A stretch of DNA of 63,784 bases, counting the filler, from Octopus bimaculoides (taxonomy: Eukaryota): the NCBI RefSeq assembly GCF_001194135.2. It is 9 parts of 8 records of this genome, joined end to end, with 100 filler letters (N's around TTAATTAATTAA, not from the genome) between each part and the next. Parts side by side here need not be neighbours in the genome. Positions count along the whole stretch, not along the records: positions 1 to 29,762 come from NC_068984.1; positions 29,863 to 39,103 come from NC_068987.1; positions 39,204 to 45,523 come from NC_069002.1; positions 45,624 to 50,481 come from NC_068985.1; positions 50,582 to 55,934 come from NC_068985.1; positions 56,035 to 58,366 come from NW_026391738.1; positions 58,467 to 60,070 come from NC_068989.1; positions 60,171 to 61,808 come from NW_026386417.1; 1 more part is not named here. One strand, given 5' to 3'. Both the position numbers and the translations under genes were made by a program. Below, one piece after another: positions 6,804 to 61,670 of the stretch (positions are counted from its first letter, which is position 1; each line of letters starts with the position of its first letter). The notes beneath the pieces are model-generated. The model searched no databases and was not told the DNA's origin. It worked only from the letters and a program-made list of their open reading frames with translations.

Positions 6804-7212
6804 GGAGTAAAGATTATTTGCCAACATAACATGGCAGTCCTGGTTTAGGACGAATATTGCTGTAATTTAGCCCCAGGAGACATCATCACCAGCTGGCTAT
6901 ACGCCATGATCTGTGTCCTTATATTTTTGAACAAGGGAATCTAGCACCCCCACTCAGCTCAAAACAATATCTGTGTATTGCGATTTTCGGGTTATTTCCC
7001 TTCTGAGCTGATGAAGGGAAATAACCTGGAAATCGCAATACACAGGTATTGTTTTGAGCTGAGTGGGGGTGCTAGATTCCCTTGTTCAAAAATATAAGGA
7101 CACAGATCATGGCGTTTAACCAGCTGGAGACAGTGTCTCCTGGGGCTAAATTACAGCAACATTCGTCCTAAACCAGGACTGCCATGTTATGTTGGCAAAT
7201 AATCTTAACTCC
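6804..7212. mobile_element. Near-perfect foldback element (about 200-bp arms, 9-nt loop), Penelope/retrozyme-like
   Basis: 6804-7003 is the reverse complement of 7013-7212, and a hammerhead spans the apex. The arms share motifs (ggcagtcc, atttagcccca, ctgtgtcctt) with the 17.6/17.9 kb repeats. Confidence 0.8.
7003..7045 (+). ncRNA. Minimal type-I hammerhead ribozyme motif (slightly decayed) at the hairpin apex
   Basis: CTGAG CTGATGA AGG-GAAATAA-CCT G GAAA TCGCAA TA CACAG. Stem I has 4 of 5 pairs; stem III is near the palindrome TTGCAA. Confidence 0.6.
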
Positions 7213-7441
7213 TATTTCTGTCATGATTTACTACTTATCAACAGGCTGTCTAATGTGTCATAACTTGTTGTCATCCCCCAGATAAGTAGCTCTCCGTTTA
7301 CAGAAATACTGTGTTATATAGAGTTGATAGGTTAATAGTTCAACTTTTTTTTATGTGTCTATTAAAAGCTTTTTTACTTCAGTTTCTCAATTAAGTAATT
7401 TTCTGTATTTTTATAATATCTTTTCTTTTTTTTATTTGCAG

Positions 7442-7520
7442 CTCCTTTTTTAAAAGCTGATTTGTCAGCTCATGTTACATGCAAAAAGGATATAGATAAT
7501 AGCTTTCCATATTCAGAAAC
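7442..7520 (+). CDS. ASPSCR1: Internal coding exon of TUG/ASPSCR1-like UBX-domain protein (xPFLKADLSAHVTCKKDIDNSFPYSE)
   Basis: Long polypyrimidine tract ...tttatttgcag acceptor and gtaagt donor at 7521. Open in phase 1 to phase 2, and the phase joins correctly to the 15074 exon (AC|A = Thr). Confidence 0.7.
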
Positions 7521-7861
7521 GTAAGTGATGTTTTTGAAAATATAAATTTATGATTTAAAATTTGTTGTTATGATTTACATCCTTAGTCATTAGATCCTCG
7601 TCAATTATGAACTCTAAATGGTTAGATCTCAATTATCTGAAGGAGACAGGAAGGGAGTATTCATTTTGGATAACTGGCATGATCATATACAAAAACAAGA
7701 CATTCAACATAATTACATAAAGTGTCTCTTTACAGAGTTCCTATCATTGAATTGATAAAATGTATACTTACATTAGACATTACTTAAAAATTCATGTTAC
7801 AAATAAATTACCATTCTCTGCTTAAATAAAAAATATGGAATTGAAGATTCAAGGCAGCATG

Positions 7862-7960
7862 GTTGAATGCATTTGTATCTGCATGCATGCATTCATGCAA
7901 GATGCATGCATGCATGCATTCATTTGTATCTGCATGCAAGAATGCATTTGTATCTGCATA
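7862..7960. repeat. (ATGC)n-based minisatellite with three gcatttgtatctgcat-like units
   Basis: Directly visible. Confidence 0.85.
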
Positions 7961-8189
7961 AGTTCATAGATTTTGGCACTGCTTGGTTTTATGTAAATAA
8001 TTCTTTGGGGTAGAAGTTGGTCATTGTTGCTTGAGGTAGTTTTGCCCCTTAAAATAACCGAGATCAAAGTGGTAGAGTGACCAATATGCAGGACTTTTAT
8101 AATGATTATAAACTAAAGATGGGATCATCACACAACTGTAAAACCTCTTTATATAACAATTAGCTTATAACAGAGTATGAAAATATTGG

Positions 8190-8625
8190 TTTTAAATTTT
8201 GGCACAAGGCTGGCAATTTCAGGAGAGGGGCTGAGTCAGTTACATCAACCCCAGTGCTCAACTGGTACTTATTTTATTGACCCTGAGAGGATGAAAGGCA
8301 AAGTTGACTTAGGTGGAATTTGAACTCATAACATAAAGACAGACAAAATACTGTTAAGCATTTTGCCTGGGACGCTAACAATTCTTCCAGCTCCAGCTCA
8401 CTGCATTACTGTTTCAAATTTTGGTACAAGGTCAGCAATTTTGGGTGAGGGGCTAAGTCGATTACATTGACCCCAGTACTCAACTGGTACTTATTTTAGC
8501 AATCCCAAAAGAATGACAGGCAAAGTTGGCCTTGGCAGTATTTGAACTCAGAATATAAAGACAGACAAAATGCTGCTGAGCCTTTTTCCCAGTGTGCTAA
8601 CAATTCTGCCACCTTGCTGCCTTCA
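8190..8625 (-). mobile_element. Two tandem copies of a SINE (aaattttggcacaagg...aggatgaaaggcaaag...gacgaaatac family)
   Basis: 8190-8400 matches 8410-8625. Same family at 34375-34560, 40005-40200 and 62225-62540. Confidence 0.8.
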
Positions 8626-11600
8626 GAGTATAAAAATATTTGCAGTCATTCACTGTCTTGTCAGCACCCATCCCCCTCTAGATAGCAATAGTAATGACCA
8701 CATTCATTAGGGACTGTAAACATTACTTCAATATAGCATAGCTGTCTTATTCAACTTTTCTCTATTTGCTCATAGTCATTCCTCCTTTTCACTCATCTCT
8801 TTTCCTTGACATACCAACTGGACAATATCAAGTTGAACTACCATATCATACTTAGAGTCAAACCTCTGTTACTTCAACAATGGATAATCTGAAATTAAGA
8901 TAATTGACCTTTTACCCTTCAGATTTCTCTGTCAAATGTAAGGTAAGGGTGAGAGACCAGATATAGCCAGTTTGAACATAAAACTGGTAGAATATTTTGG
9001 CCTGATATAGCCAGTTTAAATGCTAAAGGATTAATATCTCAAGCTACTGTGAACATTTAGTTGAGTTTAGATTACTCTGTGTAATTCCAAACTCAGGGAT
9101 AATTTCCGTAATTTGAATTTGTCATTAATTATTGTAAACAAAATACAAAATGGTGGTGCCATTATTACTGTCAAGATTGGGTTACATGGTGTAGCTAACT
9201 AAATGTTCATGGAAACTTAAGATATTGTTCAGATAACAGGTCTGGTATGGTAGTTCAAGTCAATATTGTCCAGTTGGTGAGTCAAGGAAAAGGGTTGAAT
9301 AAAAGGGAGGAATGGCTTACAGCCAAAGGAAAGAAGTTGAATGAGACTGCTATATTGAAGAATGTTTGTAAACCTTGATAACTGGTTATTAGTGTTGCTA
9401 GCTGGAAGAGGTGAGCAAATACTAACAAAACTGTATCAGGCTGTCAATATTTTTATACTCTGTTATCAGTTTATTGCTTGGTCACTACGGCATTTATGTT
9501 AATCAAACTGTGTCAACAAAGAAGGCCTACCACTATAATTGGTGCAGTGTGTATGCTCCAGCCTGCTCAAATGGTACAGTATAATCTTCCACTTGACATA
9601 CAGCATATTTCTAAATATGGTGCAGTGTTCAGTGAAATGAGAAATTTATCTTGTTATATTTTATTTTCAAATCATATTTTGTTTTTCATTTTCCAACCAA
9701 TATCATCATAATTTTAGTCCTCATAGGTAGCAGAAGAGTTTTAGTATGTAGATTTTATAATGCCTGGATAAGCACATCTTCTTCAGTCATATGGCTTTAC
9801 AGCCACTCTATTGTGAGGGCTTCTGAGGTGGGGGACTGTATTAAAATTAACCTCAAACAGCTGAGTATGTAGCTGTAGTTTTAAGATACATCTTTTGGAT
9901 GCTCTGGGATGCATTGTCAGTGATGTTTTCAGAGTCTCAGAGAATTTCAGGTCTTCCAACATCAGACCCCTCATCTAGTTGATTCAACCAGAGTTGATCA
10001 AGTCCCAGCTTGCATCCCTATAACAGCAAACCACTGATCTTTATCCAAGCTACTTCATGGCCTTCACTACAGCTTCAGTGACAGAATTTATAGCCCTCCT
10101 CTTAGTAACCAACTATCATTGACTTTGTCACTATAGAATCTTTGATACATAATTCTTTGCTGAACCAAGGATCTCGTCCTTGGTTTGCATCAGAATGAAG
10201 CAGGATTATAATGGCAAAGGGTGCTGGCCAGCTTTATTTAACCAAATCACCATCTCTCTTACCTACATAAGAAAAAGATCTCTTCAGTGAACATATAATC
10301 CATAATCTCAAAATGTTAGATTCAGTCAGTATGTTCACAGCCTCTAGTTTTGTCTTTCAAGCACATACATCCCATCATAAATTTATAAAAACCTGTAGCA
10401 GTGCTGTGGTTGAGTATAACTCTAATATTCACCTTATTCACACATGCTCTAATATTTAAACTAATAACCCCCACAAAAAATGCTGACAAAAATTTCCTGA
10501 ATTAACTACCGGCACTGGTGTACCATTATCACTAGATTTTCTGTGGCACAAATTTTGTCATTGACTACCAATCAATGTTTTTGATAGATTTCCAATGCTT
10601 TCTCAAGTAAAATTCAGTCTTTTTGTTTTGGTTTTTTTGGGGACCATTTTTTTAACTTCTAAAAAAATGGTATGCAGTTATTCTTAATGTCTTGTGTGAA
10701 ATTTGTTCCTTGATATTCTGATTGTCTTTGTTGGGTTTAGAACAATTTTTTCTCAATGTTAAACAACAAAAATAGCGGATTGGCAGAATTGTTAAATTCT
10801 TAGGTCAGTTTAATTAACTTCACTCTAATCTCAAATTTATGGCCATGCATCATTGTTAAAAAATCATTATATAAGAAATCAGTGATCTGTGGAGTGATAG
10901 AAAAGGCAGGGTCAAGCTAACTATTTTGCCATATTTAGCTTTATCCTTCCATGTTCTGAGTTCAAGATCCAATGTGGTTAATTTTGATGTATTTCTCTAG
11001 AGTTGATAAAAGAAATAACAGTGAATTCAACTCTTTTTCCCTATTAATTTGTGGCCTTATTACCAATGAAGGCTTGTCCTTTATAGAATAAGTCTAGATA
11101 CCTCACAAATTTATTCTATTAATAAACATGTATGTTTCACAGAAGATAATTAAAATTTAAACTACAGCAATCTTTGTTTTGACAACAATCATTTTTCAGA
11201 GTCTCTGAAATTGGTTGGGGATGGACTGTTAAATAAAGGCGACAAATGTAATAACAAAATATGATGGTTGCAACTAGAATGCTTTTGATCATAAGTCTGT
11301 GTAATCAAATCTGACTGGGAAGTTAAACAACAGTCAATGATACAGCAACACACCCATTACTGACCTCAATCTTAATCACCCCTTCTCTCTCTCTGACTGA
11401 ATAACTTCTGTTGCTCTGTCAATGATACAGCAACACACCCATTACTGTCACACTCTAACCTTTCATCATCTGATGTACAAGATCACCTCCAATGCTACGT
11501 CCCCTCTCAAAGGATCTTTGTCTTGTTGATCCTACCAGTGTTGGTACCTCATAAAAAGCATCCACTGCACACTGTAAAGTGGTTGGCATTTGAAAAAGCA

Positions 11601-12865: not shown

Positions 12866-12900
<35 letters not shown>

Positions 12901-13460: not shown

Positions 13461-14492
13461 ATCGATAATAATAATAAAGGGTAAAATTAATTAATTGATA
13501 ATTAATAATTTTACCAAGTAGTTTGGTATGTTAAAAGAACCATTATCGGTAAACTTATACAAAAGTTTTATAATTATAATTAGGGTTCAGCAAAATTGCT
13601 TCACCACATACCGAAATTTAGAAATAGCAGTTAAAATACTATTCCACTACCATAAGATATCTCCCAGACAGAAATATTCCCAACTCACGCAGGCAAAGAG
13701 AATAAATAACGAATCCACCCGGCTTTGATCAACTATATATGTGTTTCTGGATTAAAGAGATGTAAAATATCATTTTTACTCACTTATTTCCGTCTTCAGT
13801 ATAGTATTTCAATTATAAATTTGACAGTACTAATAATTAAAATATGTATTCAACCAAGCGCCATCGAACAGCTCATATCCAAAAACCAGCACTTTCGAAT
13901 TTATATAGACAAGTGAGAACTCACATTCTTCCCCAATCACCCACGTGTGCTATGAGTAATCCCGCAGAAACTGCAGTTTACTATCAAGGAGTGAATTATA
14001 TTATCATATATATTATCATATCATTATCATATATGATAATATAATTCACTCCCTGATAGTAAACTGCAGTTTCTGCAGGATTACTCATAGCACACATGGG
14101 TGATTGGGGAAGAATGCAAGTTCTCACCTGTCTATATAAATTCGGAAGTACTGGTTTTTGGATATGAGCTGTTCGATGGCGCTTGGTCGAATACATATTT
14201 TAATTATTAGTACTGTCAAATTCATAATTGAAATACTATACTCAAGACGGAAATAAGTGAGTAAAAATGATATTTTACATCTCTTTAATCCAGAAACGTG
14301 TATATAGTTGATCAAAGCCGGGTGGATTTGTTACTTCTTCTCTTTGCCAAGGTGAGTTGTGAGTATTGCTGTCTGGGAGATATCTTATGGTAGTGGAATA
14401 GTATTTTAACTGCTATTTCTAAATTTTGGTATGTGGTGAAGCAATTTTGCTGAACCCTAATTGTAATTATGCTTATAATTATAAAATTTTTG
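13461..14492. mobile_element. Asymmetric palindromic insertion (about 450-bp arms plus about 95-bp unpaired tail) with 16-bp target-site duplication
   Basis: Arms about 13557-14010 and 14030-14494 are reverse complements. TACAATTTCTAATATT occurs at both 13445-13460 and 14493-14508. Confidence 0.8.
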
Positions 14493-17545: not shown

Positions 17546-17582
<37 letters not shown>

Positions 17583-17583
<1 letters not shown>

Positions 17584-18064
17584 GATGGTTTGTTGCTAAC
17601 TTAATGTGGCAGTCCCAGGAAAGGGAAGACTGCTACTGCTATTTAGCCCCAAGAAACACCATTTCTAGTTGGCTATGTGACATAAGCATTCTGTGTCCTT
17701 AAGTTTTCAAACTGGAAATAAACACTTCCAGCCAACAAAGCCAGCATCCAGAGACTAGTTTCAGGGTAGTTGCCTTTCATCAGTCTGGAGTAGCTTGGCT
17801 TTGCGAGCTGTCGGTGCTAAATCGCTGCTGAAAACATTGAATTTCATGTGAAATAAATTCACTGATCTACAAAATTAGAAATATTGCATTTCTAAATCTC
17901 TCAGAGAGAGTTATACAGTAGCAGCACGATAAAGTGATGCTTTGTTGCCAACTTAATGTGGCAGTCCCAGGAAAGAGAAGAACACTACTACTATTTAGCC
18001 CCAAGAAACACTGTTTCTAATTGGCTACGTGACACAAGCATTCTGTGTCCTTAGGTTTTCAAAC
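17583..18064 (-). mobile_element. Penelope-like partial tandem (two about 130-bp direct repeats flanking a hammerhead)
   Basis: 17583-17712 matches 17934-18064; the hammerhead at 17747-17789 lies between them. Same family as the 6.8 kb foldback. Confidence 0.65.
17747..17789 (-). ncRNA. Minimal type-I hammerhead ribozyme motif
   Basis: Minus strand reads TCCAGA CTGATGA AAGG-CAACTA-CCCT GAAA CTAG TC TCTGGA: perfect 6-bp stem I, full core, palindromic stem III, GUC cleavage triplet. Confidence 0.75.
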
Positions 18065-18963
18065 ATCCTACAAATGCTTGACTTTACAATCTATGTCTAT
18101 AACATTGCGTATTTCATCTTCAAATTAGGCTTCCATTTCAGGACTAGAAAATACTTCAGGTCTGATCAATAGTTCACCTCTACCATATTAGAATCCTGTT
18201 CACATGTTTGAAGCTAGCACTAATACTTCACACACAGACATCCAAAACAAAAAGGCATTTTGAATGATTGGCAAAGATTTTCTAATATACTTGATACTTT
18301 AACTCACAGAAATACTGTTTCTTCTCTCTTTCTGATCTCTCCATTGCAATAACCTCTGCTCTTCTAAACTAACAAGCAACCTACCCTCTCCGTTCAAACC
18401 CACCCAACTCATCTTGCTCTTCTTTCATCAAAAAACAACCTAGATAATGTGGTCCTACATACCCCTAAAGACACAATATACTCAATGTTAGAATGCCTTT
18501 GATCATAAACTGCTTGATTTCAGTTGGCCTGGGGTTCAACAAAACCAGCAACCAGCTACAACTTTTTGATAACTTTATTAATGGTGAAAGGATGAAAAAT
18601 TATGTTGACTTGAAGTACAATTTAGTCTCATAGCCATATACTGCCAAAATGTTCATCAATTATAGACTAAGTGAGCAAACAGTTTTCCTTGTTGCCTTAA
18701 ATGGAACAGAATAAATAATTGAGAATTTCTCCAGCCTATGAGAGGAGTAGAGCTGTTTCTGATAAAATTAGATACAAACTTGAGCAGTTTAAAATTTTGG
18801 ATGAAAATCAGGATAAAATAAACTATTGAAAACACTGAACAATGGGAGCAGTGTGATTTCTGAAAATGATTAAGTGAATAACAATTTAAGATAAGAATCT
18901 GAATAGTATTTATAATTTGACCTTTAATATTAAGTTTTAATTTTTTTATTTTTACTCTTCCAG

Positions 18964-19109: not shown

Positions 19110-19144
<35 letters not shown>

Positions 19145-19841: not shown

Positions 19842-22800
19842 AATACAAATACAACTGTTTGATTTTTTTCCCATCATGTTATTTTTGTGAGATTTTAATT
19901 AATGTATTTCTATTTTCCTGTCATAAATAAATGAATGGATACATGCTATGTTTTTTAATAGTGTATAAACTGAAATAAAATATTTCAATGGGACTTCAAG
20001 ACTGTGAAGTGTTTGATTAATTGTATTCTACAAAAATTATAAAGAATTTATCCTTGAATATAAATAAGTTAATCTTTCAGTGAAAATATATATCATCATC
20101 ATTTAACATCTATTTTCCATGCTGACATGTGAATGTTTATATATATAAATATATATACATTGTATATATATATAAATACCCTCACATACACTCACATACA
20201 GATATCATCATCATCGTTTAACGTCCGCTTTCCATGCTAGCATGGGTTGGATGATTTGACTGAGGACTGGTGAACCAGATGGCTATACTAGGCTCTAATC
20301 TGATTTGGCAGAGTTTCTACAGTTGGATGCCCTTCCTAACGCCAACCACTATATATATATATATACTAGCAGAGGCACCCGGCGTTGCTCGGGAATGAAA
20401 TTCTTGCTTATGTACTTGAAGAAAAAAAGGCAAAATATGCTGTATAGAAATTTGAGAGGACATTCTGTAGATGGACTCTCAGATGAATGATGGCTGGGCG
20501 CCTCATGAATGGGGNNNNNNNNNNNNNNNNNNNNNNNNNNNNNNNNNNNNNNNNNNNNNNNNNNNNNNNNNNNNNNNNNNNNNNNNNNNNNNNNNNNNNN
20601 NNNNNNNNNNNNNNNNNNNNNNNNNNNNNNNNNNNNNNNNNNNNNNNNNNNNNNNNNNNNNNNNNNNNNNNNNNNNNNNNNNNNNNNNNNNNNNNNNNNN
20701 NNNNNNNNNNNNNNNNNNNNNNNNNNNNNNNNNNNNNNNNNNNNNNNNNNNNNNNNNNNNNNNNNNNNNNNNNNNNNNNNNNNNNNNNNNNNNNNNNNNN
20801 NNNNNNNNNNNNNNNNNNNNNNNNNNNNNNNNNNNNNNNNNNNNNNNNNNNNNNNNNNNNNNNNNNNNNNNNNNNNNNNNNNNNNNNNNNNNNNNNNNNN
20901 NNNNNNNNNNNNNNNNNNNNNNNNNNNNNNNNNNNNTGTGTATGTAGTATTTACTCTCTCTCTCTCTCTCATACACACGAACACACAAAATAGAGAGTGA
21001 AGCTTTTTTTGGCTTTGTTACGTCAATACTGGAAGTTGACATTGAGGAACCTTTTTAAAGAAGTGAATCTTAAATATAAAGCAATATTATTTATTTTTAA
21101 TTAAAAAAATCAAATGAAGAGCCCAAGATTTATCCGAGGTCAAATTATTCACGCATCACAAGTATGGAAGCATTTGGTGAAGTCGATTTCACGTGAAAAG
21201 CGATTACACACACATCTCTGTTTTATATATAGTATAGATATATATATATAGCACAGGTCTTCTCAAGAAGACCTGTACTTCGCAGCAGAAATGTTAAGGC
21301 TGCTCCTTCTGGTGGTGTAAAGTATTCATGGCGGTGTCACATAAAAGTGCCATGTAAAAGTACTGGTGCAGCAGCACATAAAAGCGCATATGCAGTGTCC
21401 ATGCAGTGCCACATGAAAGCACATGTGTGGTGTGGTGCCATGTAAAAGCACCCAGCACACTCTGTAAAGTGGTTGTTATTAGGAGGGGCATCCAGCCATA
21501 GAAATCATGCCAAATCCGACGGGTCTGTTGCAGCTTGCCAGCTCTGGTCACACTGTCCAACCCATGCCAGCATGGACAATGGATGTTAAATGATGATGAT
21601 GATATAATACATATGTCATCATCACTTAAAGCCCCTTTTCCATGCTGGTATAGGTTGGGTGAATCAGAGAACTAAGCTGAGCTGTAGTATCTGATTTGAC
21701 ATGGTCTCTAGAGCTGGATGCCCTTCCTAATGCCAACCACTTTACAGAGTGTACTGGGTGCTTTTTTTAGTTTGTGGCACTAGCACTGAGGTCATGACAT
21801 ATTTGCAAGACGAGCCCCTCTCAGCCAAGGGGGGTGTAGTATTGCAGAAGGTGAAAGTATGACAGAAGGACAGGATCAGGTGTCTAGTTGAAGAAGGGAT
21901 ACATGGCTTCCCCATCTGAAAAGAGAGAAAGAGATGGTGGAGAGCATGCCCTCAAGGTATAAGGTGAATACAAGAAAGAGAGAGAAAAGTGTAGGACAGA
22001 AAAGGTGAGAGTTCCCTCAATCACCTTCATATTTCCACCCATTCACAAAGTATGTCCCCTTCTTTTAATTTAATCTTTTTTTTTTTTTTTGACAGCTGAA
22101 CAGTAGCCCTCATTCTAGTTCAATGTGCTAAAGTACTATAACTCAGTTTGTGTTGAAAATCATAGTCATATAGGTCAGATAATTATTATGAAATATAAAA
22201 AGTGAAAATTTTATTGTTAATTTTCAATTAGAAGAGGTCATTTCTCAGAAATTCAATATGGTCATAGCTGAATCTGACAACAAAATGGTGAAAAGGCTCA
22301 GTCAATAAAGAGGGTGGCATTACCATGCCTGCTTGTATAGGATTAATGCATACAGACGCTATTTATTGAACTGATGCCGGAAGAGGTCAAATGGAACATG
22401 ACTTCCAAGGCTTCAATCAGAATTTCAAAAAATGCACTAAAGTAAGTCTTTTAGAACCCAAAATTAGCATATATTTTTCATATTGAGAATATTGTTTATT
22501 CCTTCTCACTGTTTTAATGTGTGGAGAGTGATATCCAAATTTTAACTTGTGGATATTCTTGTAGATGTAAATTTCATTTTCCTTTGAGAAATATTAGTCA
22601 AATTTTGCCAATAAAAATTATTGTGCAATGAACATTATTTTGTAGACTATTAAAATCCAATGGAGCTTTTTTTTTTTTTTTTTTTTTTTTTTCAAAAATT
22701 GTGAATACAGACAGATAATTTGTAGTAGTGTTTACATTCATTTTGGGTTTTCTTTTCTCTCCCTCCTATTAACAAGTTTGTTGTAAGTTACAGATGCTTT

Positions 22801-24830: not shown

Positions 24831-24847
24831 AATGTACACAGTATATA

Positions 24848-26342
24848 CACCCAGAACCACACTAATAACTTAGGAGTGAAATTTAGGATTTCTCGGTTTT
24901 CTGAAAATCGATTTTGGTAAAACTTTTCCCAGCTGGTTTGCACACTATGACAACACCATTGTTATGTTTTCATTATTCTGTGTAACGTCCTTTCTTTTTT
25001 ATTTCAGATTCTTCAGTTTTTGAGTGAGCCACACTAATAGCTTTTGAATGAAAATTACCCTTCATTTTCTGAAAATGAAGAGTAATGATAAATATTAAGA
25101 ATACATTGAGTTAACAGAAAACCGTAATAATATCATAACATTTATTGACATACTGAATTATTTAGCCTCATGAGCACCATTTTGATGCATAACTTCAAAA
25201 ACCCTGTTAGTCATGGAATCTGTCAATTCCTTAATCGTAGCAGGTTGGACTGCTTCTGCTGCAGCTTTGATAGTTGTCCACAAGACATTTTTCAACATAA
25301 ATTGGCATCCATTGGCATAAACATCTTGTTTAATGATAGATCAAAGATTTTTGGTAGGGTTGAGATCCAGGGATGCTAGTGGCCACACCATCACCCTTTC
25401 ATCTTGTATGCCATAAGACCCTAGCATACAAGACCACTCTGGGTGGTCCTAGCAGAGTGGAAGGGAGTGTTGTCATGAATATGAGATTCCTTAAAAGTGA
25501 CATCAGTATGTCATCTAGCCAGGGATCCAAGACCTCCTTCAGGAGATTGCAGTAGGCGACTGCAGTCACTTTAACCTCTTTAGGCATCCTGACTGGGCCA
25601 ACAAGTCTGTCCCCAACAATACCAACCCACAACATGACTCCTCCACCCTGTTGTTGACATCGTAAACATTGGTAATGCTCATCTCCAAAACAGAACCAAC
25701 CATTTGCCCAACTGTCAGGTTCATCAAGGGTCAGTAAACAGAACACAATTCATGTCTAATGTCATGTACTTTTGGGCCCATTGAAGCCTCAAACTCTTGT
25801 GAGGAAGCAGTTTCAGGGGTTCTCACATGGAAGCCATGGTCCCAAGGATGCGATTTCTGGTGGTTTTCAGTACATGAGGAAGTTCAGAGGTGATGAAAAT
25901 AGCTTTATTTGTTTGTCCAGGTTTCCCATGTAACTTGCGGCCAATATTCCTTAAATCTCTAGCTGTCACAGTCTTGGAGGTACCACAATCAGATCAGTTC
26001 TTCCTTGGCGCACATGTTGCTGAATAATCCATTATGCCAGTAAATGTTATAATATTATTATGGCTTTCTGTTAAATATATACTCAATGTAAGCTTAATAT
26101 GTATCATTACCCTTCATATTCTGAAAAAAATTGTCTAGATGGACTATTTTCCTTCAAAAGCTATTAGCATGGTTCATCCAAAAACTGAAGAATCTAAAAG
26201 GACATTACACAGAATAATGAAAACATAACAATGGTGTTGCCATAGTGTGCAAACCAGCTGGGAAAAGTTTTATCAGAATCGATTCACAGAAAACTAAGAA
26301 ATCCTAAATTTCACTCCTAAATTATTAGCGTAGTTTTGGGTG
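24848..26342 (-). mobile_element. Tc1-like DNA transposon (about 1.5 kb, degenerate transposase)
   Basis: About 120-bp terminal inverted repeats (24848-24970 and 26221-26342) with TA flanks. Minus-strand peptide includes QQQGGGVMLWVGIVGDRLVGP and YCNLLKEVLDPWL. Confidence 0.8.
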
Positions 26343-26349
26343 TAGTTGT

Positions 26350-26860
26350 GAACTTCTAACAGTTTCATACATTGAAGAAATCCTTTAGGCTGGTTTTATA
26401 CACACACTCCAGCAATGGAAAGTACTATGCCAACTTGCCGAAGCAGTTATGAAAAGCTATCAAGACCAAATGCCCAGGAAAACTGACAAAAGGTGTCTTG
26501 ATTCATTAGGGCAATGCTCTAGCACACAAGTCCTTGGTTTCAATGGCTGCTGTGCATGACTGGCTTTGAACTGGTTGAACAGCCTCCCAATACTCCTGAT
26601 TTGACCTCATCTGACTATCATCTGTTCCCTAATATGAAAAAACACTTGGCTGAGAACCAGTATCACAGTGATGATGATGATGTTATATCTGCTGTTGAAG
26701 ACTTTTTTGATCAACAGAATGAAAGCTTCTTCACCAAGCACTGAAATACTGATGGATGAAGTGTAGACCACAAGAGGGATTTTGTTGAAAAATAAACCTC
26801 ATTTGGTCACATTCCATGAGAGTATCTTGGACAGCCTATGAACTTTTCAGCCAACCCTCA
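26350..26860 (+). mobile_element. mariner transposon 3' fragment
   Basis: PPNTPDLTSSDYHLFPNMKKHL matches the mariner YSPDLAPSDYHLF motif; terminal ...aacttttcagccaaccctc follows. Confidence 0.8.
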
Positions 26861-28873: not shown

Positions 28874-29047
28874 CTTATATATATACATATAATATAATAT
28901 ACTTATATACATATAATATACTTATATATACATATATATATACAGATATATATAAAATACACTGCTTTATTTTGAGATTGCTAATATTAACAATACTCGC
29001 AAATAAAATACAGACTGGAGTTGTAGTGCTCCAATTGAGCTATATTC

Positions 29048-29743
29048 CGTTTAATAATCCGAATGGAGGCAATGTAAGTGGAAACTAGGGGAACATGATT
29101 AATAGCCACACACAAAATCAAATATATTCTTCTACGTTAATAGAATCGATATAAAAATTCCAAATAATATAAATATAAAAATACATATAAATGGATAAAT
29201 ATCGATATAATATATAAAACGTAGTGAATTTTAAATTTACAAGTTACAATACATTGGTATAATAAAAATTTTGATACGATAAAACATTAAAAAGACATAC
29301 TAAAACACCACGAAAATATTACAAAGATTTAAAAGTTCCATCTATGGGCCGTTTCAGAGACATGCCAAGTAATATGATATATATTTCATATTTTTTAAAA
29401 CTGACACTCACCTCATCAGGATGTTTACACATAATGCAAAGAAAAAAAACAGAAATACAAATTATCCAATTACATACCAGCCACTTTTTTGTAATTATAT
29501 GTAAACATCCTGATGAGGGTCATGTCAGTTTTTAAAAATATGAAATGTATATCATAATACTTGGATATTTATCCATTTAAATGTATTTTTATATTTATAT
29601 ATTTTTATATTTGTATTATTTGGAATTTTTATATCAATTTCATTAACGTAGAAGAATATACATATATATTAGAGTTTGTGTGTGGTTATTAATTATGTTC
29701 CTCTAGTTTCCACTTACATTGCCTCCATTCGGATTATTTAACG
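29048..29743. mobile_element. Palindromic element with an internally deleted right arm
   Basis: About 29494-29743 is the reverse complement of 29048-29432 but lacks about 29205-29368. Both arms contain CCTGATGAG. Confidence 0.7.
29339..29423 (-). ncRNA. Degenerate hammerhead-like motif with long stem II
   Basis: Minus strand reads CATC CTGATGA GGTGAGTGTCAG...TTGGCATGTCTCT GAAA CGGCCCA TA GATG. Stem I is 4 bp and stem III is close to the palindrome CGGCCG. Confidence 0.4.
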
Positions 29744-29862
29744 ATATATATATATATATATANNNNNNNNNNNNNNNNNNNNNNNNNNNNNNNNNNNNNN
29801 NNNNNNTTAATTAATTAANNNNNNNNNNNNNNNNNNNNNNNNNNNNNNNNNNNNNNNNNNNN

Positions 29863-34202: not shown

Positions 34203-34216
34203 TATATAATCCTTTT

Positions 34217-50254: not shown

Positions 50255-53200
50255 TAAGTTTATTTTAAAAATAAGTTGGTCATCTTCTGTTGGTTGTTTT
50301 TTCCTCGCATTAGGTACTAAATGTGGTTATTTTGAGAAGTCCACTGTGTAGCGCTATTATTTTCTATAATAATGCCCTTTATATAAATATAAACGAATAA
50401 TTATATTCTTGGGAATAGAAATTTCCCTAATGAATTTTTTTACACACTGGCTTCTTGATAAAATTCTTGTAAAAGAGTTTTNNNNNNNNNNNNNNNNNNN
50501 NNNNNNNNNNNNNNNNNNNNNNNNNTTAATTAATTAANNNNNNNNNNNNNNNNNNNNNNNNNNNNNNNNNNNNNNNNNNNNCCTTATATATATATATATA
50601 TATATTCATATACATATATATATATCGCGCATGTATTAACTTTGGTGTCGTCGGTATCTCCTTGATTTGTGTTACTCCCTCCCTCCTCATAACCTCTCCA
50701 CCCGTAAACTCACAAATATATACGCCTATATGTATTTGTGAATTTACTGGTGAAGGGGTAGAAACTTTATAAGTTTCTTCGATTTCGTATTAATTGATGC
50801 CTTTCTGTTATAGAAACTCCTCGACTAGAAATCAACCAGTAGCTATGCTAAAAAACCCGACCCTACCTTGCCTTATTGACGCACACCTTCTTTCTCTACC
50901 ACGTCCAAAAATATTTCCCCACCTTCTCCCTCCAATTGATTTTCTCTTCAAATGTCAATCCCACTTTTAAATTCTGTGCTTAAGCTAAACCACTGTATTA
51001 TCTACTACTGACCTGTCCAAATTCCTCCTTTCTTTAACTCTCCTGTAGTTTATTTTTTATTTACTTATTTAATGTTATCTTTTTCTTCTCTCTTCCCTTT
51101 TTCTAATATTTATTTTTCACTACCATGATATATCCCTCATATACTGTGCCCTCCACACATTCTGATCGAGTCCTCTTTGTGTCAACATATACCTCCTTGT
51201 GATAATGTAGCCTTTCATCTAATCAATATATCCTTGGCCTGAAGTGTAGGCAGCGGTATATACCTCGCTTGGATGTTACCTCTTCTGAGGATCCACTCGC
51301 AATGAAACATATGTAGTCCGGTCTTTTCCTACTCCATTCTGTAACTCTTATGTATATGTACGCATATATATATACACACACACGCCCCCACACACATACA
51401 CACACATGTATATGTATGTATTTTGTGTGTGTTTGTGAGTGTGTGTGTAAATGTGTGTGAGTTCGTGAGTATGTGTGTGTGTGTAAGTGGTTGTGTGTGG
51501 GAACGTTGGTCCCTTAAATCAAAGAATTGAATATCCCATTATTATCATATCCACCGTAGAACTAGATATAAAATACTGTTTAAAATTTAAATTATTTACT
51601 TTTTGTATAACATTTTGATGTACATGGAACAAAAAAACTAAACGAAATGAGATTAGATAATTTAGCTGAATGTAGAGAACGAATTGATTTTGTAAAATAT
51701 ATTACGAAGTGTGTGGAAAGCTTGAAATTTACATATTTAAAATGTTTTTGTTTTCTCCCGCATGAACAAAACATTTGCTAGTCTCACAACAAACTGATAA
51801 TTGCGTCATCCATTTGAATTTAGAAAGAAGAATTCTAACAAAACGGTAGTGACTTTAATTAGTAGCCATTGAAATAATTCTAAATTCCTTAATTGATAAA
51901 TATCGGAGCCAATGCTGCTTCAATTTGTACAAATGACATGTTGATGGAACAGATTAATTTCTTTAAAGTATATTGATTAACAAGCTTTTATTCAGTTGTT
52001 TTCTGGAATGCGAGCTCGCAAATTACTTTAATTAATTTCTTTAATAGTACCAACGTGCCTTCCAACCAAGTTCTTTCACAAAAGTTTTAATTTCAAATTT
52101 CATCTCCCACATAACCTAATGAATTCGGTTAAGATTTGACCCCACTCCTCAAAAATAAGAAAGATTTTAAAATAGTGCTACCTTGTTATTTTGGGGCTTT
52201 TATCAGAAAGTTTGCTAACAAAAATATAATTATCATACTGAATTTTGCCTTGGGAATTCTTTTCTGAAAATTATATTTCGTTCTATCTTACGTCGTGCTC
52301 TATCACAATATCGAAAAGAGCCAAGATATTTTTCAATACGGAAAGGGAAATATAATTCCATTCCCATTGCGTCTCTCTCAGGTATTGAATAATTCTAATA
52401 GCAGTAATTGCTGTTTTTCTGATAACGGAATTGACTTCAAAATCAATTTCGGCTGTAAACTGACTGCTGAGTGCGTGTATTTACTTAATGGCAAGCTCTC
52501 TGGATTATAAGGAAATATTTATGTCTCAGGCGCTCTTGAAATTCTGGTATAACGTCTTATTATATAATTATGTTGCTCTACCTCTCTTTTTTTGTATTAC
52601 TATGTAATTTTAGTCAACAATTTCCATTAACAATGTACCTCACGTTTTCTATAACTCTTTTATATGTTCTTTCATTCTATGTTAAGCGTCCTGTCATTAA
52701 ACTAGCTTTACTAATATCCCTAAGTGAAACGGTTGCTGTACATATTTCACTAAACATCATAATATTCAACAGGTTTATAGTAAGAGTATAATGTAATTTA
52801 CCTTTCATTTTTAACGATTAATCACTATTGCTGTTATTTATCGAAAGTACCGACAAATACCAATTTATTTATTTCAGATGCTATTTTAAATTTTTCTCAC
52901 GTTTTTATTCTGACGTTATAATCTGTCGTTTTTATTCCACATTTAGCTGAAAAATATGTTCCAAATATTATGTACTGAAGTTTTCGAGTATCGTTGTCAT
53001 CCGCTCTGTGCTACAGGGATAGTAACACACCACAAGTCCTAACAGTATGTAACTATTATCGCTTTCAAATCAAACACTGCCCTTCTTTCAAGTTTATTGA
53101 TGCCTAATAATTTCCGGACTTCTTCTCGGTTTGTAATTTGATCAAAATTTATTGGCTACTTGAAAAATTAAAATCCGTTCCTTCGAACAACATATGAATT

Positions 53201-53299
53201 CAGGTGCGTAGTGTATTTTCATTTTCCCGAGAGTCTGTACGAGTGCCTGCTGTAAAGTTCATAACATCACCAAGATGCTCTCCTGGAATGTTAACAGAT

Positions 53300-54030
53300 G
53301 AAGTATATCCTTCAACATAATCCCCGTTGCAATTCACACACTTCTCCAATCAGTGTTGCAGTGCTTTGATCACATTGGTCAAGAAACTTTCAGCCTGTTG
53401 GTCAAAACAAACATCAATAGCAGATACCGAGTCATCATCACTGCGATGTTGCTTCCTGGCAAAGTGTCTTTCAAGTTGTGGAACAGATGATTGTCAGATG
53501 AGAGACAAAGGAGCGTGATCAGCAAGTTCAAAACCACAGTCAGGAGCAGCAGCCATTGAAACCAAGGACGTTTTTACTTGAGCGTTGTACTGTTGAAACA
53601 AAACCCCTTTCTTGATTCTGTGTTAGGAAACCTTCAAGAAAACTATTTTGATCAGCCTGGTTTTGATCAGCCTGGTGCGCTTTTGATCAGGTGTCAGAAC
53701 ACTTGTCACCTAGCGAGCAGCAGCCTGCGCCATGCCAAGTTCATTATGTAGAATATTGTCAACTCTCTTATGAGATATGCTAATACACTGGCTATTTGAT
53801 TTATAGTCAGTCGCCAGTCATCCATCAGCGTGTGGTGAACACGATCAGTTTTCCACTGTGGTTGAAATTACAGCAAGTCCAGACCTTGAGTCATCTTCAA
53901 GACTATCCGTTCCCCTCCTAATGTCAGCTTCCAACTTTTGCACCCCTAATGCAGCAACGATGTCAAGATGAATGTCTTTGTTGACTAACCCCTTTTTCTG
54001 TAGGTACTTCTTGACATTATGATGCAAAAT
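53300..54030 (-). mobile_element. mariner transposon, internally deleted and decayed
   Basis: Minus strand gives LEDDSRSG at the N-terminal side and KALQH*LEKCVNCNGDYVE at the C-terminus. Confidence 0.75.
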
Positions 54031-55869
54031 TTTGTTCATTTTCAAGAGCAGCCGCAGATGGAGCAGGGACAACTGAATAAGGGTAATATTCTTTATGTTG
54101 CATGTCTCGTTTCTCTATTTGGTTCATTCGTTGTTCGAAAAAGGTTCCTTTTCTATCTTCGTCTTTATGCTTTCGTTTCTCATTGTGTTTAACCTTTTTT
54201 GTGATGTCCTGTACCCATATGTGCTTGTATGTATACATATAGATGTCGGTATGTACATATATGTATGGATATAAGCATATAATTATATATTATTTATGTT
54301 ATTATATATATNNNNNNNNNNNNNNNNNNNNNNNNNNNNNNNNNNNNNNNNNNNNNNNNNNNNNNNNNNNNNNNNNNNNNNNNNNNNNNNNNNNNNNNNN
54401 NNNNNNNNNNNNNNNNNNNNNNNNNNNNNNNNNNNNNNNNNNNNNNNNNNNNNNNNNNNNNNNNNNNNNNNNNNNNNNNNNNNNNNNNNNNNNNNNNNNN
54501 NNNNNNNNNNNNNNNNNNNNNNNNNNNNNNNNNNNNNNNNNNNNNNNNNNNGAGAGAGAGAGAGAGAGAGAGAGAGAGTGACAGGGAGAGGCCTATAATC
54601 AAGAAAAAACATTTTCTTCATAAAGTTTTTTGTTGGGGTATTTTATCCCCGTGGGCACCAGTTTTGCATACTATCGATTGTTGATTCTGGATAATATTTG
54701 CGTGTTCATGTACTAATGATCCTGGTTGGTTTGTTTTACCATTTTACTGCTTTTCATGTCCGAAAGTCTAGTTGTCTTTCCAATATAGAAGAAATAATTA
54801 CTACATTAAAGAAAGAAGAGAATATACATCAAAATAATAATTTTTTAATTATCTTGTTGTCAATTAATAAGTTTCGGCAAATTCTTATTGTCTATATTTG
54901 CACCTTTAAAGATAAAGATATTTAGAAAAATAAAAGACAAAGACCGGCGTATGAGCAAAAAGCAAGTGTATTAGTTTGACGCTCGGGAAGAATGAAAGTC
55001 TTATACACCTCGAACCTACTCTCTTCAACAGAAAAGAATAAGAGAAAATAAACAGAGAGAGAATGAAAACATCTTGTAGAGTTCAGCGTTCCAGCATGGC
55101 GAATATATATATATATATATATATATACACTCACAAACACACACACACACACTTTCAAGTATATGATAAATGAAAGACGGAATGTGGAAGATAAGACAAT
55201 TGTTTCGATATATCTAGCATCGATCCCTCACACCTGGGATACATATTAGTTCATGAATATCCGACGGTGCAGATGTGTTTCTTCAGGTAATAAATAGATT
55301 TTACTCGATAAAATAACAGTGTATAAGCGCCATACAGCTTTCACGAGGTCGTTTATATATCCATATCCTTTAACGGTTATTGTTAATACATTTTTCACTG
55401 TATTGCGTGTTCGTTTTTTTTTCCAATGTTATATTATTATTGATCTTCCATATAAATGAAGCTATCTCCATTAATTTGCTGCTTTCCTTTCCATGAAATG
55501 AGGCGATACATTGCTGAACTGTTATATTAAAGTGCTATATATATATTTGACATACGAAGACAGACATTCAGACTACATTTCGCGTGAGTGCAGCAACGGG
55601 GATCTAAGTATTCCAACCGTGAGGATTGATGTTAGATGTGTTGTGATTAATAAAAATCTTCGTATCTTCCATCTACTGCCTCTCATTTATCACATACATA
55701 ACGGACACTGTGAAACTAGCCCTGCTTTGCCATATATATATATATATATATATTAGATAATAGAGCGAATGGTTTGTAGCGTGTAGCTTACTGCTAAAGC
55801 AGGGCCAGTTTCACAGTGTCTGTTATGTATACATACACACACACACACATATATAAATACATACATACA

Positions 55870-55934
<65 letters not shown>

Positions 55935-56599: not shown

Positions 56600-56645
<46 letters not shown>

Positions 56646-58853: not shown

Positions 58854-58898
58854 ATGGATACTGAAAACATCAAAGTTGCTGTTCGCCTACGACCATTT
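58854..58898 (+). CDS. First coding exon of a kinesin motor protein (MDTENIKVAVRLRPF), kinesin-3/KIF28-like start
   Basis: ATG followed by the canonical kinesin beta-1 motif (I/V)KVAVR(L/V)RP. GT at 58899 must be a donor because read-through hits TGA. No downstream motor exon was recognised in the window. Confidence 0.6.
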
Positions 58899-59559
58899 GT
58901 ATCCTTTTGACAAATGTAATTGATCAGTATTTAGTTGTTATGGTTTGATAACCTTTAAATGTCTCTGGGTTTAAGTGGCACTGTGTACAGTGTGTCAAGG
59001 TAAAGTATATATTCATTTGAGGTACAGGAAATAATTATGAGTATTTCTAACTAAATCTTAACATTAAATTTTACATTTTACTTTTTACATACACACACAC
59101 ACATGTGCGCGCACATGCACAAAGTCACACCAACAACGTTTTTGCATTCTGTCACTCTCTTACTTTCTCTTTCACTTTTTCACACTGCTCTCACACCTAT
59201 ATCTGTATTTATCCATGTGTGCATTTATTCTTGTGAGTGTATGCGTATTTTCATCATCATCATCATCATCATCATCATAACCAACATCATATTTTAAGGT
59301 CCGTGTTCTATGCTGGCATAGGTTGAACTGCAGATAAAAATACTGATATAAATGTATAATATATGTGTGTCTTGCGGGTATATGTATATATATATATATG
59401 TACACACACACGTATGTATCTATGTTTCTATGTATGCATATATGTGAGTGTGTCTGTGACTGTATTAATGAAGGTATGTGTCTGTGTGCATGTTAGCATA
59501 CATATCATCATCCTCCTCCTCCTCCTCATCATCATCATCATCAACATCGTCATCATCAT

Positions 59560-60005
59560 TTAACGTCCATTGTCCATGAGGGCATGAGTTGGATGGTTTG
59601 ACTAGGGCTTGCAGGCTGAGGGGGCGGCACCAGACTCCAGTCTGATTTGGCATGGCTTCTACGACTGGATGCCTTTCCAAATACCAAAAAGTAAAGATCC
59701 CCTTCAGTCATGAATGACCATGGGATGCACTTAGAATGTTCCCCTTCAAGGCACAATTCCGGGCAAAGTTGTTTATGGAGGACCAGCAGTTGCCCATGCA
59801 TACCAGCCTCCATTCTCCATGCCACCGATGTTATCCAAGGGAAAGGCAAAGGCTGATACAGTTTGGCACCTGTGATGTCGCAACTCATTTCTACAGCTGA
59901 GTGAACTGGAGCAACGTGAAATAAAGTATCTTGCTCAAGAACACAACACACAGCCCGGTCTGGGAATCGAACTCACAACTTTATGAATGCAAACCCAACA
60001 CTCTA
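59560..60005. mobile_element. SINE composite (family also at 30575-30905 and 61910-62157)
   Basis: Shared gaccagcagttgcc...caagggaaaggcaaagg...ctggagcaacgtgaaataaagt segment. Confidence 0.75.
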
Positions 60006-60244
60006 ATCATGTGCCTTCTTATACAAATATATATCTATGTATATATATATATATATATACATATATATATNNNNNNNNNNNNNNNNNNNNNNNNNNNNNN
60101 NNNNNNNNNNNNNNTTAATTAATTAANNNNNNNNNNNNNNNNNNNNNNNNNNNNNNNNNNNNNNNNNNNNTAAATAAAAGGAGTCCTCTGGTTTTCCATT
60201 CGTCACCATTTCTCCTTTTTTGAGTTCGCACGGCCGTACCTTAC

Positions 60245-61670
60245 AGATATTATACAACCGTACATCATAATGGTGTTGAAATCATGAACATATCAAGCAA
60301 ATGATTCAAATTTATGATCCTAGACTATGAAGTTCGGTAATTAACCAATCCAGAACGCTGTACATTTCGAAAAGGATCGTTGGAGTTATAAACATAAATA
60401 CAAAATTCAGACCGAAGAAAAAAACAGTTAGATATTTAAAAATACATATTTAATACAAGATCCTCGTCAAATAGAAGTATAACTAATAAGTAATACTTAT
60501 ATATAATATACTCAATAAATAACTTAAGCATACATAAACTAAAAATGCCTTATATTAATTTAGTATTTATAAGTAAAAAGCCTAATAAGGTCATTCAAGC
60601 CTGCTAGGTTATAGAGAATAAAATATCTACATTAGAATACATTCAAATTATAGCTAACAAGTTACAAAAGAATAAAGTTAATTAGGTAAGTGATAAAGTT
60701 AAATATACCAAAGAAAATTAGACAGATTTATTGATTACTACGTTAGCGTAGAAACCGTAAACAAAAAACTGGTCACAACTCAAAAAATCCCCAAATAAAA
60801 TTGATTTACAAATTTAGTGATTACTATTAAATGAAGTAGCAAGCAAGAATGCTATATAATATCACAATATATATTATTTTAAAAAAGGCAATACATAAAG
60901 CCAGTTGAGAAAGAAATTATGCCTTTACAAACTGGCAATAAATACTATTTACATATTGATGGTCAAGGGGAGGTAAATCTAGCTCTTTCATTAAAATGAA
61001 TATATATAGAGATTTTAAACCGACTCAGTTTATTTTAAAAAAACCAAAGCAAAATATTAAATTGATTATGACTTATCAAAAAAACATTTTTATATATAAA
61101 AAACCAACTTCATGAGCAACATACATGATATGTAATCATGATATCAAAGGATATTTAAAAAATATATATAATTGTACCATATACATGAATTTAAGATATC
61201 GTCAATAGTTAATCATATGAATTCAAACTAAATTACACATTATAACATAGCAAAATAATATATGGGATTGTTTATAGAGGCATCTAAACTACTTAGTCTA
61301 TGCTATTAAACGTGTGACAATATTGTAAGCACTAAGATTATTTTTTAAAAAAGATTCCACTATAATGCATTTTTAGTTTATGTATACTTAAGTTGTTTAT
61401 TGAGTATATTATATATAAGTATTACTTATTAGTTATACTTCTATTTGACGAGGATCTTGTATTAAATATGTATTTTTTAATATCTAACTGTTTTTTTCTT
61501 CGGTCTGAATTTTGTATTTATGTTTATAACTCCAACGATCCTTTTCGAAATGTACAGCGTTCTGGATTGGTTAATTACCGAACTTCATAGTCTAGCATCA
61601 TAAATTTGAATCATTTGCTTGATATGTTCATGATTTCAACACCATTATGATGTACGGTTGTATAACATCT
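60245..61670. mobile_element. Long inverted-repeat element (about 310-bp arms, about 800-bp AT-rich spacer)
   Basis: 60245-60554 is the reverse complement of 61361-61670. No coding capacity recognised in the spacer. Confidence 0.7.

What the first reader, a model, noticed from the sequence alone, without database searches (positions are those of the whole stretch)
6804..61670. Recurrent family of foldback insertions carrying minimal hammerhead ribozymes
Six long palindromes (6.8, 13.5, 29.0, 41.9, 49.7, 60.2 kb) and one tandem repeat (17.6 kb) occur in 64 kb. Five of these seven loci contain CUGAUGA motifs, four with a GAAA, a palindromic or near-palindromic stem III and a flanking stem I (seen). 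Minimal type-I hammerheads with palindromic stem III are an established hallmark of Penelope-like elements and retrozymes, and are thought to cleave as dimers. Inference: several unrelated non-autonomous, ribozyme-processed retroelement families here insert preferentially as hairpins, sometimes with the ribozyme at the fold. This would be a large source of self-cleaving and double-stranded RNA in this genome.
Basis: partly seen in the sequence, partly recalled or inferred. Interest (0 to 1): 0.8.

Follow-up and report, generated by a model that had tools for sequence, protein, structure and literature searches.

The report
Penelope-type hairpin insertions with hammerhead ribozymes
Five long DNA hairpins and one tandem repeat in this animal genome carry mostly decayed hammerhead (self-cutting RNA) motifs and are likely the short leftovers of Penelope-type jumping genes, a known kind of insertion and not a new system.

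Summary
The palindromes and the tandem repeat are real. Hammerhead cores are enriched in them: CTGATGA lies in 4 of 12 objectively chosen inverted repeats, P about 0.001-0.007.

The 6.8 kb element has a 13-bp target duplication, head-to-head arms and a 58-nt one-sided tail. That is the published anatomy of Penelope-like element (PLE) insertions. Genome contigs show other copies of the 17.6 kb family both as tandems of about 340-350 nt and as inversions with different fold points, with compensatory changes in stem II. RNA-seq shows only about 35 reads per million, on both strands, with no pile-up at the cleavage site, so 'a large source of self-cleaving RNA' is unsupported. No autonomous partner could be reached.

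The scan noted the same kind of thing on two other genomes. Verdict: new members of a known kind; modest interest.

The parts
6733..6745 (+). Left copy of 13-bp target-site duplication of the 6.8 kb element
   Evidence: Identical 13-mer at 7212-7224; 2 of 150 random position pairs score as high
6746..6803 (-). 58-nt one-sided tail, homologous to 17872-17933; holds a small hairpin conserved with the 17.6 kb unit
   Evidence: Alignments; folds
6804..7003 (-). Left arm (sense on minus strand), starting inside hammerhead stem II
   Evidence: 200-nt arms, 94.5% identical
7003..7045 (+). Minimal type-I hammerhead at the fold (core 7008-7014, near-palindromic 8-nt stem III, predicted cut after 7040, one mismatch in stem I)
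   Evidence: Passes strict descriptor; anatomy
7013..7211 (+). Right arm (sense on plus strand), no tail
7212..7224 (+). Right copy of the 13-bp target-site duplication
13580..14472 (.). 13.5 kb head-to-head palindrome, 442-nt arms, short right-side extension; candidate 12-bp AT-only target duplication at 13568-13579 / 14473-14484
   Evidence: the duplication is low-complexity, so weak
13732..13805 (-). Decayed type-I hammerhead (CTGAAGA core, 6-bp stem I, long stem II), reads outward
14235..14308 (+). Mirror hammerhead with one core change (CTCAAGA), reads outward
17582..17712 (-). 3' repeat copy of the 352-nt unit, ending at the short terminus against an (AT)15 tract
   Evidence: 90% identical to 17934-18064
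17747..17789 (-). Best-preserved minimal type-I hammerhead (core 17783-17777, palindromic 6-nt stem III, GUC triplet, predicted cut after 17753), inside a long extended stem I
   Evidence: family variants repair and covary stem II
17713..18064 (-). One full 352-nt structured, non-coding monomer (1.37 units present at this locus, one hammerhead)
   Evidence: Fold z = -3.6, 0 of 100 shuffles as stable; tandem joints of 340-345 nt at other loci
17872..17933 (-). Tail segment between two recurrent family termini (about 17872 and 17929-17934); holds a roughly 50-nt hairpin motif shared with many other repeat families
   Evidence: Loose-end tables and depth about 15,000 times the unique flank; folds
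28955..29750 (.). 29 kb degenerate head-to-head palindrome between (AT)n tracts, with an approximately 85-nt left-only extension
29339..29423 (-). Decayed hammerhead: intact core, 4-bp stem I, irregular 57-nt stem II, near-palindromic stem III
   Evidence: fails both descriptors
29506..29564 (+). Mirror core, GAAA half lost
41903..42136 (.). 41.9 kb palindrome with a lone CTGATGA (42035-42029, minus) in the loop; no GAAA, no target duplication found
49672..50481 (.). 49.7 kb head-to-head palindrome, 348-nt arms, both ends at or next to assembly gaps
49898..49958 (-). Hammerhead with 6-bp stem I, 29-nt stem II, 9-nt near-palindromic stem III; AAAA in place of GAAA
50194..50254 (+). Mirror hammerhead with intact core and one stem I mismatch
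60245..61670 (.). 60.2 kb inverted repeat, 310-nt arms 98% identical, 806-nt spacer; no convincing hammerhead, no target duplication; unassigned

Best explanation
Five of the six palindromes and the tandem repeat carry type-I hammerhead cores that read outward from the fold, and they are likely short, protein-less insertions made by Penelope-like element (PLE) machinery. Shown: head-to-head arms, a 13-bp target duplication and a 58-nt one-sided tail at 6.8 kb; two recurrent family termini about 58 nt apart; AT-rich or (AT)n landing sites; a structured 352-nt non-coding unit that other loci hold as tandems or as inversions with different fold points. Inferred: a PLE reverse transcriptase/GIY-YIG protein encoded elsewhere binds the structured 3' end of an uncut transcript and nicks both strands of AT-rich DNA. 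It starts reverse transcription at either of two sites, giving one arm with the tail and one without. The two 5'-truncated cDNAs join (or one cDNA snaps back) through short microhomology, so each hairpin is made anew at insertion. The hammerhead is simply part of the terminal repeat that gets copied. With 1-3 bp of stem III it would cut only as a dimer or with protein help, and most copies here are predicted dead. 60.2 kb is not assigned.
For: Target duplication and tail. Homology of the 6.8 kb arm plus tail with the 17.6 kb unit. Family termini near 17872 (mixed AT-rich flanks, agreement 0.49) and 17929 ((TA)n flanks) (table 7). 7 of 15 shown joints are strand inversions at seven different places and 4 are 340-345-nt tandem returns, all in both DNA runs from two studies. 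Three of the seven must be head-to-head: one shown by a contig, two because the other direction would enter unique flank. Stem II is repaired at 17775 in about 90% of depth, and 17774 and 17765, a predicted pair, both vary in the compensatory direction. Two compensatory pairs between the 6.8 and 17.6 kb repeats (four sequences only). Motif enrichment. Published PLE anatomy: PMC3846280, PMC8557442; two start sites and both-strand priming: PMC11167929.
Against: No RT or GIY-YIG match in 60 six-frame translations of the loci or in 109 of 209 open frames scanned. No autonomous partner found, so PLE origin rests on anatomy, not homology. The tail is 58 nt against 30-40 nt in the papers. A target duplication is good at one locus, weak at one, and not found or hidden by gaps and microsatellites at five. 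The relaxed descriptor was written after seeing the data, and 1 of 150 shuffles matched its total count. 40 joints and 133 variant rows were not shown.
Confidence: 0.8

Rival explanations
1. The loci are dead-on-arrival 3' stumps of autonomous PLEs themselves, with no separate non-autonomous family. The 352-nt tandem is just a partial tandem of a terminal repeat.
For: PLE copies are mostly 5'-truncated and form partial tandems and inversions (PMC8557442 passages). The most expressed relatives share only the tail motif and then run on into other sequence (table 7). This reading probably fits 13.5, 29 and 49.7 kb equally well.
Against: In the 17.6 kb family the tail runs on into the next unit's hammerhead after about 80 nt, with period 340-352 at several loci. 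The repeat has stops and frame differences but conserved, covarying stems, as expected of a non-coding RNA unit.
Confidence: 0.35
2. One reading: the hairpins are ribozyme-processed mobile units that spread as hairpins, with the hammerhead defining the fold, and yield much self-cleaved and double-stranded RNA.
For: Core at the apex in 6.8 and 41.9 kb. Four of 7 shown family folds have a breakpoint in or just 5' of the hammerhead. One RNA read crosses a fold junction (17835/17933, run X22).
Against: Fold points differ between copies. The 4-of-7 bias is not significant (P = 0.11). RNA is low, equal on both strands, with no place where many molecules begin or end and no tandem-return joint among the shown RNA rows. 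Most cores are damaged. HHR cleavage was dispensable for insertion in vitro in PMC11167929.
Confidence: 0.12
3. The palindromes are MITEs or foldback DNA transposons, and the motifs are chance words.
For: CTGATGA is not enriched window-wide. The window holds other inverted-repeat elements, such as 24846-26344. 60.2 kb has long arms, a spacer and no hammerhead.
Against: Asymmetric ends with a tail and a 13-bp duplication at 6.8 kb. The same sequence occurs as a direct tandem at 17.6 kb. Full hammerhead anatomy and covariation. No transposase match in the loci.
Confidence: 0.05
4. The palindromes are assembly artefacts of a gapped short-read assembly.
For: 29, 49.7 and 60.2 kb lie next to N gaps.
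Against: Arms differ by 2-8% with an excess of transitions, many CpG-type, in four of the six pairs compared, which points to ageing after insertion. The family's inversions appear in contigs from two independent studies. The palindromic loci themselves were not checked against reads.
Confidence: 0.03

Closest known systems
Insertion units of endonuclease-positive Penelope-like elements (Penelope/Poseidon, Neptune, Nematis, Hydra): pLTR, adjacent inverted 5'-truncated copy, optional tail (PMC3846280, PMC8557442, PMC11167929)
   Same: Head-to-head inversion, palindrome at the junction, one-sided tail, target duplication of similar size (8-10 bp in the A. vaga passages read; 13 bp here), AT-rich targets, type-I hammerhead in the repeat.
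   Different: No ORF at any locus; tail 58 nt, not 30-40 nt; parent element and clade not identified.
Minimal and atypical PLE hammerheads (Cervera and de la Pena 2014, PMC4209133)
   Same: Type I, short palindromic helix III predicted to work as a dimer, extra nucleotide before stem II, high variability between families in one genome.
   Different: Three loci (13.5, 29, 49.7 kb) have long stem II inserts of 29-57 nt; activity untested.
Metazoan non-LTR retrozymes (PMC7229834; bioRxiv 10.64898/2026.07.22.740005)
   Same: 352-nt structured non-coding unit with a type-I hammerhead, tandem at other loci; mussel units are 350-390 bp; proposed to be pLTR derivatives moved by PLEs.
   Different: Only 1.37 units and one hammerhead at 17.6 kb; a relative is inserted as a head-to-head hairpin with target duplication and tail; no abundant monomer RNA seen in two RNA-seq runs.
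MITEs and foldback DNA transposons (recalled)
   Same: Long inverted repeats, no coding capacity.
   Different: Ends are asymmetric, fold points vary between copies, and the same sequence also forms direct tandems.

Membership tests
EN+ Penelope-like element insertion (pLTR-derived) | Type-I hammerhead in the terminal repeat | tested here: met
   Strict pass at 7008 and 17783; decayed forms at 13.5, 29 and 49.7 kb; not met at 60.2 kb, half core at 41.9 kb
EN+ Penelope-like element insertion (pLTR-derived) | Inverted 5'-truncated copy joined head-to-head | tested here: met
   Cores read outward at 13.5, 29 and 49.7 kb; 6.8 kb arms both start in or at the hammerhead; 3 of 7 shown family inversions fixed as head-to-head, 4 not resolved
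EN+ Penelope-like element insertion (pLTR-derived) | Tail at one end only, between two recurrent termini | tested here: met
   58 nt at 6.8 kb; family ends near 17872 and 17929; longer than the published 30-40 nt
EN+ Penelope-like element insertion (pLTR-derived) | Target-site duplication or AT-rich/(TA)n target | tested here: met
   13 bp at 6.8 kb; 12 bp AT-only at 13.5 kb; (AT)n at 17.6 and 29 kb; none found at 41.9 and 60.2 kb; 49.7 kb not searched, ends at gaps
EN+ Penelope-like element insertion (pLTR-derived) | RT plus GIY-YIG ORF, or homology to the pLTR of such an element | tested here: inconclusive
   No ORF remnant in the loci; genome not held; partner searches empty or uninformative
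Non-LTR retrozyme | 170-400-nt non-coding unit with a type-I hammerhead, in tandem | tested here: met
   352-nt unit, fold z = -3.6; tandem joints of 340-345 nt at other loci
Non-LTR retrozyme | At least two consecutive units each with a complete hammerhead ('active' definition of the 2026 preprint) | tested here: not met
   One hammerhead at the 17.6 kb locus; other loci not read in full. So the locus is not filed as an active retrozyme
Non-LTR retrozyme | Abundant linear and circular monomer RNA | tested here: inconclusive
   437 and 461 reads in about 6% of two runs, no end pile-up; these libraries may lose small or circular RNA
Non-LTR retrozyme | Self-cleavage in vitro | not testable with these tools
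   Needs a transcription assay
MITE / foldback DNA transposon | Symmetric terminal inverted repeats flush with a short superfamily-type target duplication | tested here: not met
   6.8 kb has a 58-nt one-sided extension inside a 13-bp duplication; 60.2 kb shows no duplication, left end near a gap
MITE / foldback DNA transposon | Matching transposase | tested here: inconclusive
   No Pfam match in the loci, but the same scan also missed the transposase-like frame I recognise by eye at 25402-25749, so sensitivity is low

The most novel reading that the evidence does not exclude
The 6.8/17.6 kb group is a protein-less retrozyme-type RNA that is inserted by PLE machinery in trans and bears its full signature: two reverse-transcription start sites 58 nt apart, priming from both target strands, a 13-bp duplication and a head-to-head join often at the hammerhead. 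The roughly 50-nt hairpin in its tail, shared by many otherwise different repeat families at about 15,000-fold depth, is the common RNA handle that a PLE protein recognises. This would tie invertebrate retrozymes mechanistically to PLEs and give a short element for testing how PLE inversions form.
Probability: 0.35. Interest if true: 0.55.

Novelty: new member of a known kind. Interest (0 to 1): 0.28.

Why it matters
Mostly it does not change what is known: inverted terminal-repeat insertions with hammerheads are the described footprint of Penelope-like elements, and an octopus annotation already lists PLE expansions (PMC13282606). The useful part is the 6.8/17.6 kb group. One non-coding 352-nt unit appears both as a retrozyme-like tandem and as a PLE-style hairpin with tail and target duplication. 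That is anatomical support, from an invertebrate-like genome, for the 2026 proposal that retrozymes are moved by PLEs, which was argued from vertebrate phylogeny and left the mechanism open. Many copies with different fold points make the open question of how PLE inversions arise (snap-back versus two primed cDNAs) testable by computation. It also warns annotators that such hairpins get mislabelled as MITEs or miRNA precursors (Rfam's top sub-threshold hits here).

Tried and rejected
Whole genome: none held. Rfam: no hammerhead family at E<=5; the 78 matches are sub-threshold hairpin or microsatellite hits. Pfam: nothing relevant in 60 read-through translations of ten regions or in 109 of the 209 open frames of 58 aa or more (I left out frames in regions already covered or that I judged to be SINE or microsatellite). 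Only a zf-RVT fragment at 45319-45522 came up.

Collection scans for the family: 0 hits in metagenomes, viral contigs and prokaryote genomes. A generic hammerhead pattern gave 13 viral loci, 11 apparently chance and 2 an unrelated phage hammerhead-like motif.

Idea that the shared repeat is the decayed start of a PLE ORF: a profile search of 1.84 billion proteins gave 5 hits. Three are short unnamed singletons from sequencing-run contigs that look like frames over other repeat copies; two are unrelated repeat proteins. A 49-aa frame at 28990-29136 had no homologue. Not supported.

No RNA holder was listed for the stretch, which is no evidence either way.

A-to-I editing: A>G places do not exceed T>C or C>T places in the RNA runs, and no matched DNA exists, so untested.

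A hammerhead at 60.2 kb (TTGACGA at 60470/61445): considered and rejected, no stem I. An intron donor overlapping the core at 29 kb: considered, frame did not fit, dropped.

Fold-at-hammerhead bias: P = 0.11.
Full report
Setting. The window is AT-rich, microsatellite-rich animal DNA with 4,480 N in gaps. The sequencing runs name the species only as organism A. My impression that it is an octopus is recalled from the look of its short repeats and comes from no call. No whole genome was held.

Observation. All six inverted repeats and the direct repeat are at the stated places. CTGATGA occurs 11 times against 9.47 expected, so the word alone means nothing. Its placement does mean something. I defined 12 local inverted-repeat loci by self-BLAST without regard to motif; 4 hold the word, P = 0.0014 using the background rate and 0.007 using the shuffle rate.

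Hammerhead quality. A strict type-I descriptor finds two sites, 7008(+) and 17783(-); shuffles give a mean of 0.14, and 3 of 300 reach two. It hits 3 of 6 palindromes, which none of 150 in-place shuffles did (most 2), although 1 of 150 matched the total count of nine. Rfam reports no hammerhead family. Wherever cores lie on the arms (13.5, 29, 49.7 kb) they read outward, so the copies are joined head to head.

Anatomy of the 6.8 kb element. It runs from 6746 to 7211 between two identical 13-mers; 2 of 150 random position pairs scored as high in the same search. The left side is 58 nt longer than the right. Arm and extension align with the 17.6 kb unit at 67-70% over about 190 nt, so these two loci are relatives. 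In four aligned copies, 2 of 24 predicted pairs change on both sides, while reading frames differ and carry stops: a structured non-coding RNA, on few sequences. The 352-nt unit folds with z = -3.6. At 13.5 kb a 12-bp AT-only duplication is possible but weak. 17.6 and 29 kb abut (AT)n. No duplication was found at 41.9 or 60.2 kb.

The family beyond the window. I laid 4 of the 24 listed runs on 17582-18400 at 80% likeness. In two DNA runs from two studies the unique flank has depth 44 and 53, the hammerhead bins 10,000-77,000, and the 17862-17917 motif up to 676,000 and 771,000; the tool warns that these are not copy numbers, but they show a large family and a widely shared motif. Position 17775 reads as the base that completes stem II in about 90% of depth. 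Positions 17774 and 17765, a predicted pair, both vary in the compensatory direction; the table does not say whether on the same molecules. None of the 40 variant rows shown falls in the catalytic core, but 133 rows were hidden. Of 15 joints shown (40 hidden), 7 change strand at seven different places, 4 go back 340-345 nt and 4 skip; all 15 occur in both DNA runs at about single-locus depth. Three inversions are fixed as head-to-head; four are not resolved. Loose ends cluster near 17872 (mixed AT-rich flanks) and 17929 ((TA)n flanks), matching the two ends of the 6.8 kb element. Four of the seven folds touch the hammerhead region, which is not significant (P = 0.11).

RNA. About 6% of each of two RNA runs was read: 437 of 12,895,792 and 461 of 11,974,664 records laid, nearly all under 95% alike and 94-96% running on into other sequence, with both strands alike. 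No place has many molecules beginning or ending, and no tandem-return joint appears among the shown RNA rows; one read crosses a fold. This looks like low passenger transcription. Such libraries can miss small or circular RNA, so it does not exclude retrozyme RNA, but it gives no support for a large source.

Partner. No RT or GIY-YIG remnant was found, and no autonomous element was reached. PLE origin therefore rests on anatomy.

Mechanism. Shown: the anatomy above. From the literature: PLE insertions often carry an inverted 5'-truncated copy and a 30-40-bp tail (PMC8557442, passages). Head-to-head junction palindromes with 8-10-bp duplications are common and were read as self-priming (PMC3846280, passages). 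A purified PLE protein cuts AT-rich DNA, extends both strands, starts at two sites that delimit the tail, and does not need hammerhead cleavage (PMC11167929, passages and second half of the main text). Minimal PLE hammerheads with palindromic helix III act weakly and as dimers (PMC4209133, passages). Inferred: a PLE protein acting in trans primes at the two termini from both target strands, and the truncated cDNAs join head to head; snap-back of one cDNA is the alternative. The hammerhead is cargo of the terminal repeat.

Comparison. It works like an EN+ PLE insertion and meets four of five tested features; homology to a parent is open. The 352-nt unit resembles non-LTR retrozymes (PMC7229834, passages; bioRxiv 10.64898/2026.07.22.740005, parts 1-3 of 5), but this locus has one hammerhead and fails that preprint's 'active' definition. 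An octopus repeat annotation lists PLE expansion and recently active Penelope families and does not use the words ribozyme, palindrome or hairpin (PMC13282606, passages and term counts). Five paper searches showed no description of these particular families; the library lacks most subscription papers. I did not open supplements; the consensus and hammerhead files of PMC8557442 could name the clade. Two earlier notes of this scan reach the same verdict on other genomes; none exists for this genome or sequence.

Verdict. Real, partly misdescribed, and explained by known PLE biology: new members of a known kind. Interest 0.28. The residual value is the link between a retrozyme-like unit and PLE insertion anatomy, and the shared tail hairpin.

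Noticed in passing
window 17862-17921 and 6746-6803: A roughly 50-nt motif with a short hairpin is shared by several otherwise different repeat families (distinct loose ends on both sides), reaches about 15,000 times unique depth and draws most of the RNA reads. Candidate common start element for reverse transcription.
   Followed up: partly
window 850-890, minus strand: A further isolated, decayed minimal hammerhead candidate (core at 884, AAAA for GAAA), outside any palindrome; score is within the range of chance.
   Followed up: partly
window 29419, 13799 and 50147-50160: A GTGAG word, like a splice donor (recalled), follows or overlaps the core or a TGATGA word in three unrelated loci; PLE terminal repeats are reported to overlap an intron.
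   Followed up: no
window 24846-26344: Element with about 340-nt inverted ends (80%) around a frame at 25402-25749 that looks to me like a Tc1-type transposase fragment (recalled; no Pfam match).
   Followed up: no
window 36840-38047: Broken frames that look to me like gag and pol pieces of a Ty3/Gypsy-type LTR retrotransposon, running into a gap (recalled; no Pfam match).
   Followed up: no
window 40902-41499, 26426-26851, 53249-54045: Related fragments that look like mariner transposase remnants (recalled; no Pfam match for the frames scanned).
   Followed up: no
window 45319-45522: zf-RVT match (E 6.8e-5, below the curated cut-off), likely the 3' end of a LINE next to a (TAC)n tract.
   Followed up: no
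window 44872-45192, minus strand: 106-aa frame containing a hydrophobic, signal-peptide-like stretch; no Pfam match. Gene status unknown.
   Followed up: no
window 8624-9462, 34086-34207, 21444-21765, 59695-62153: Other local inverted repeats without CTGATGA; the last two are opposed copies of dispersed short repeats.
   Followed up: partly
L005 and L006, about 3490-3545: Two viral contigs carry an identical hammerhead-like motif with a well-paired stem II, unrelated to this window.
   Followed up: no
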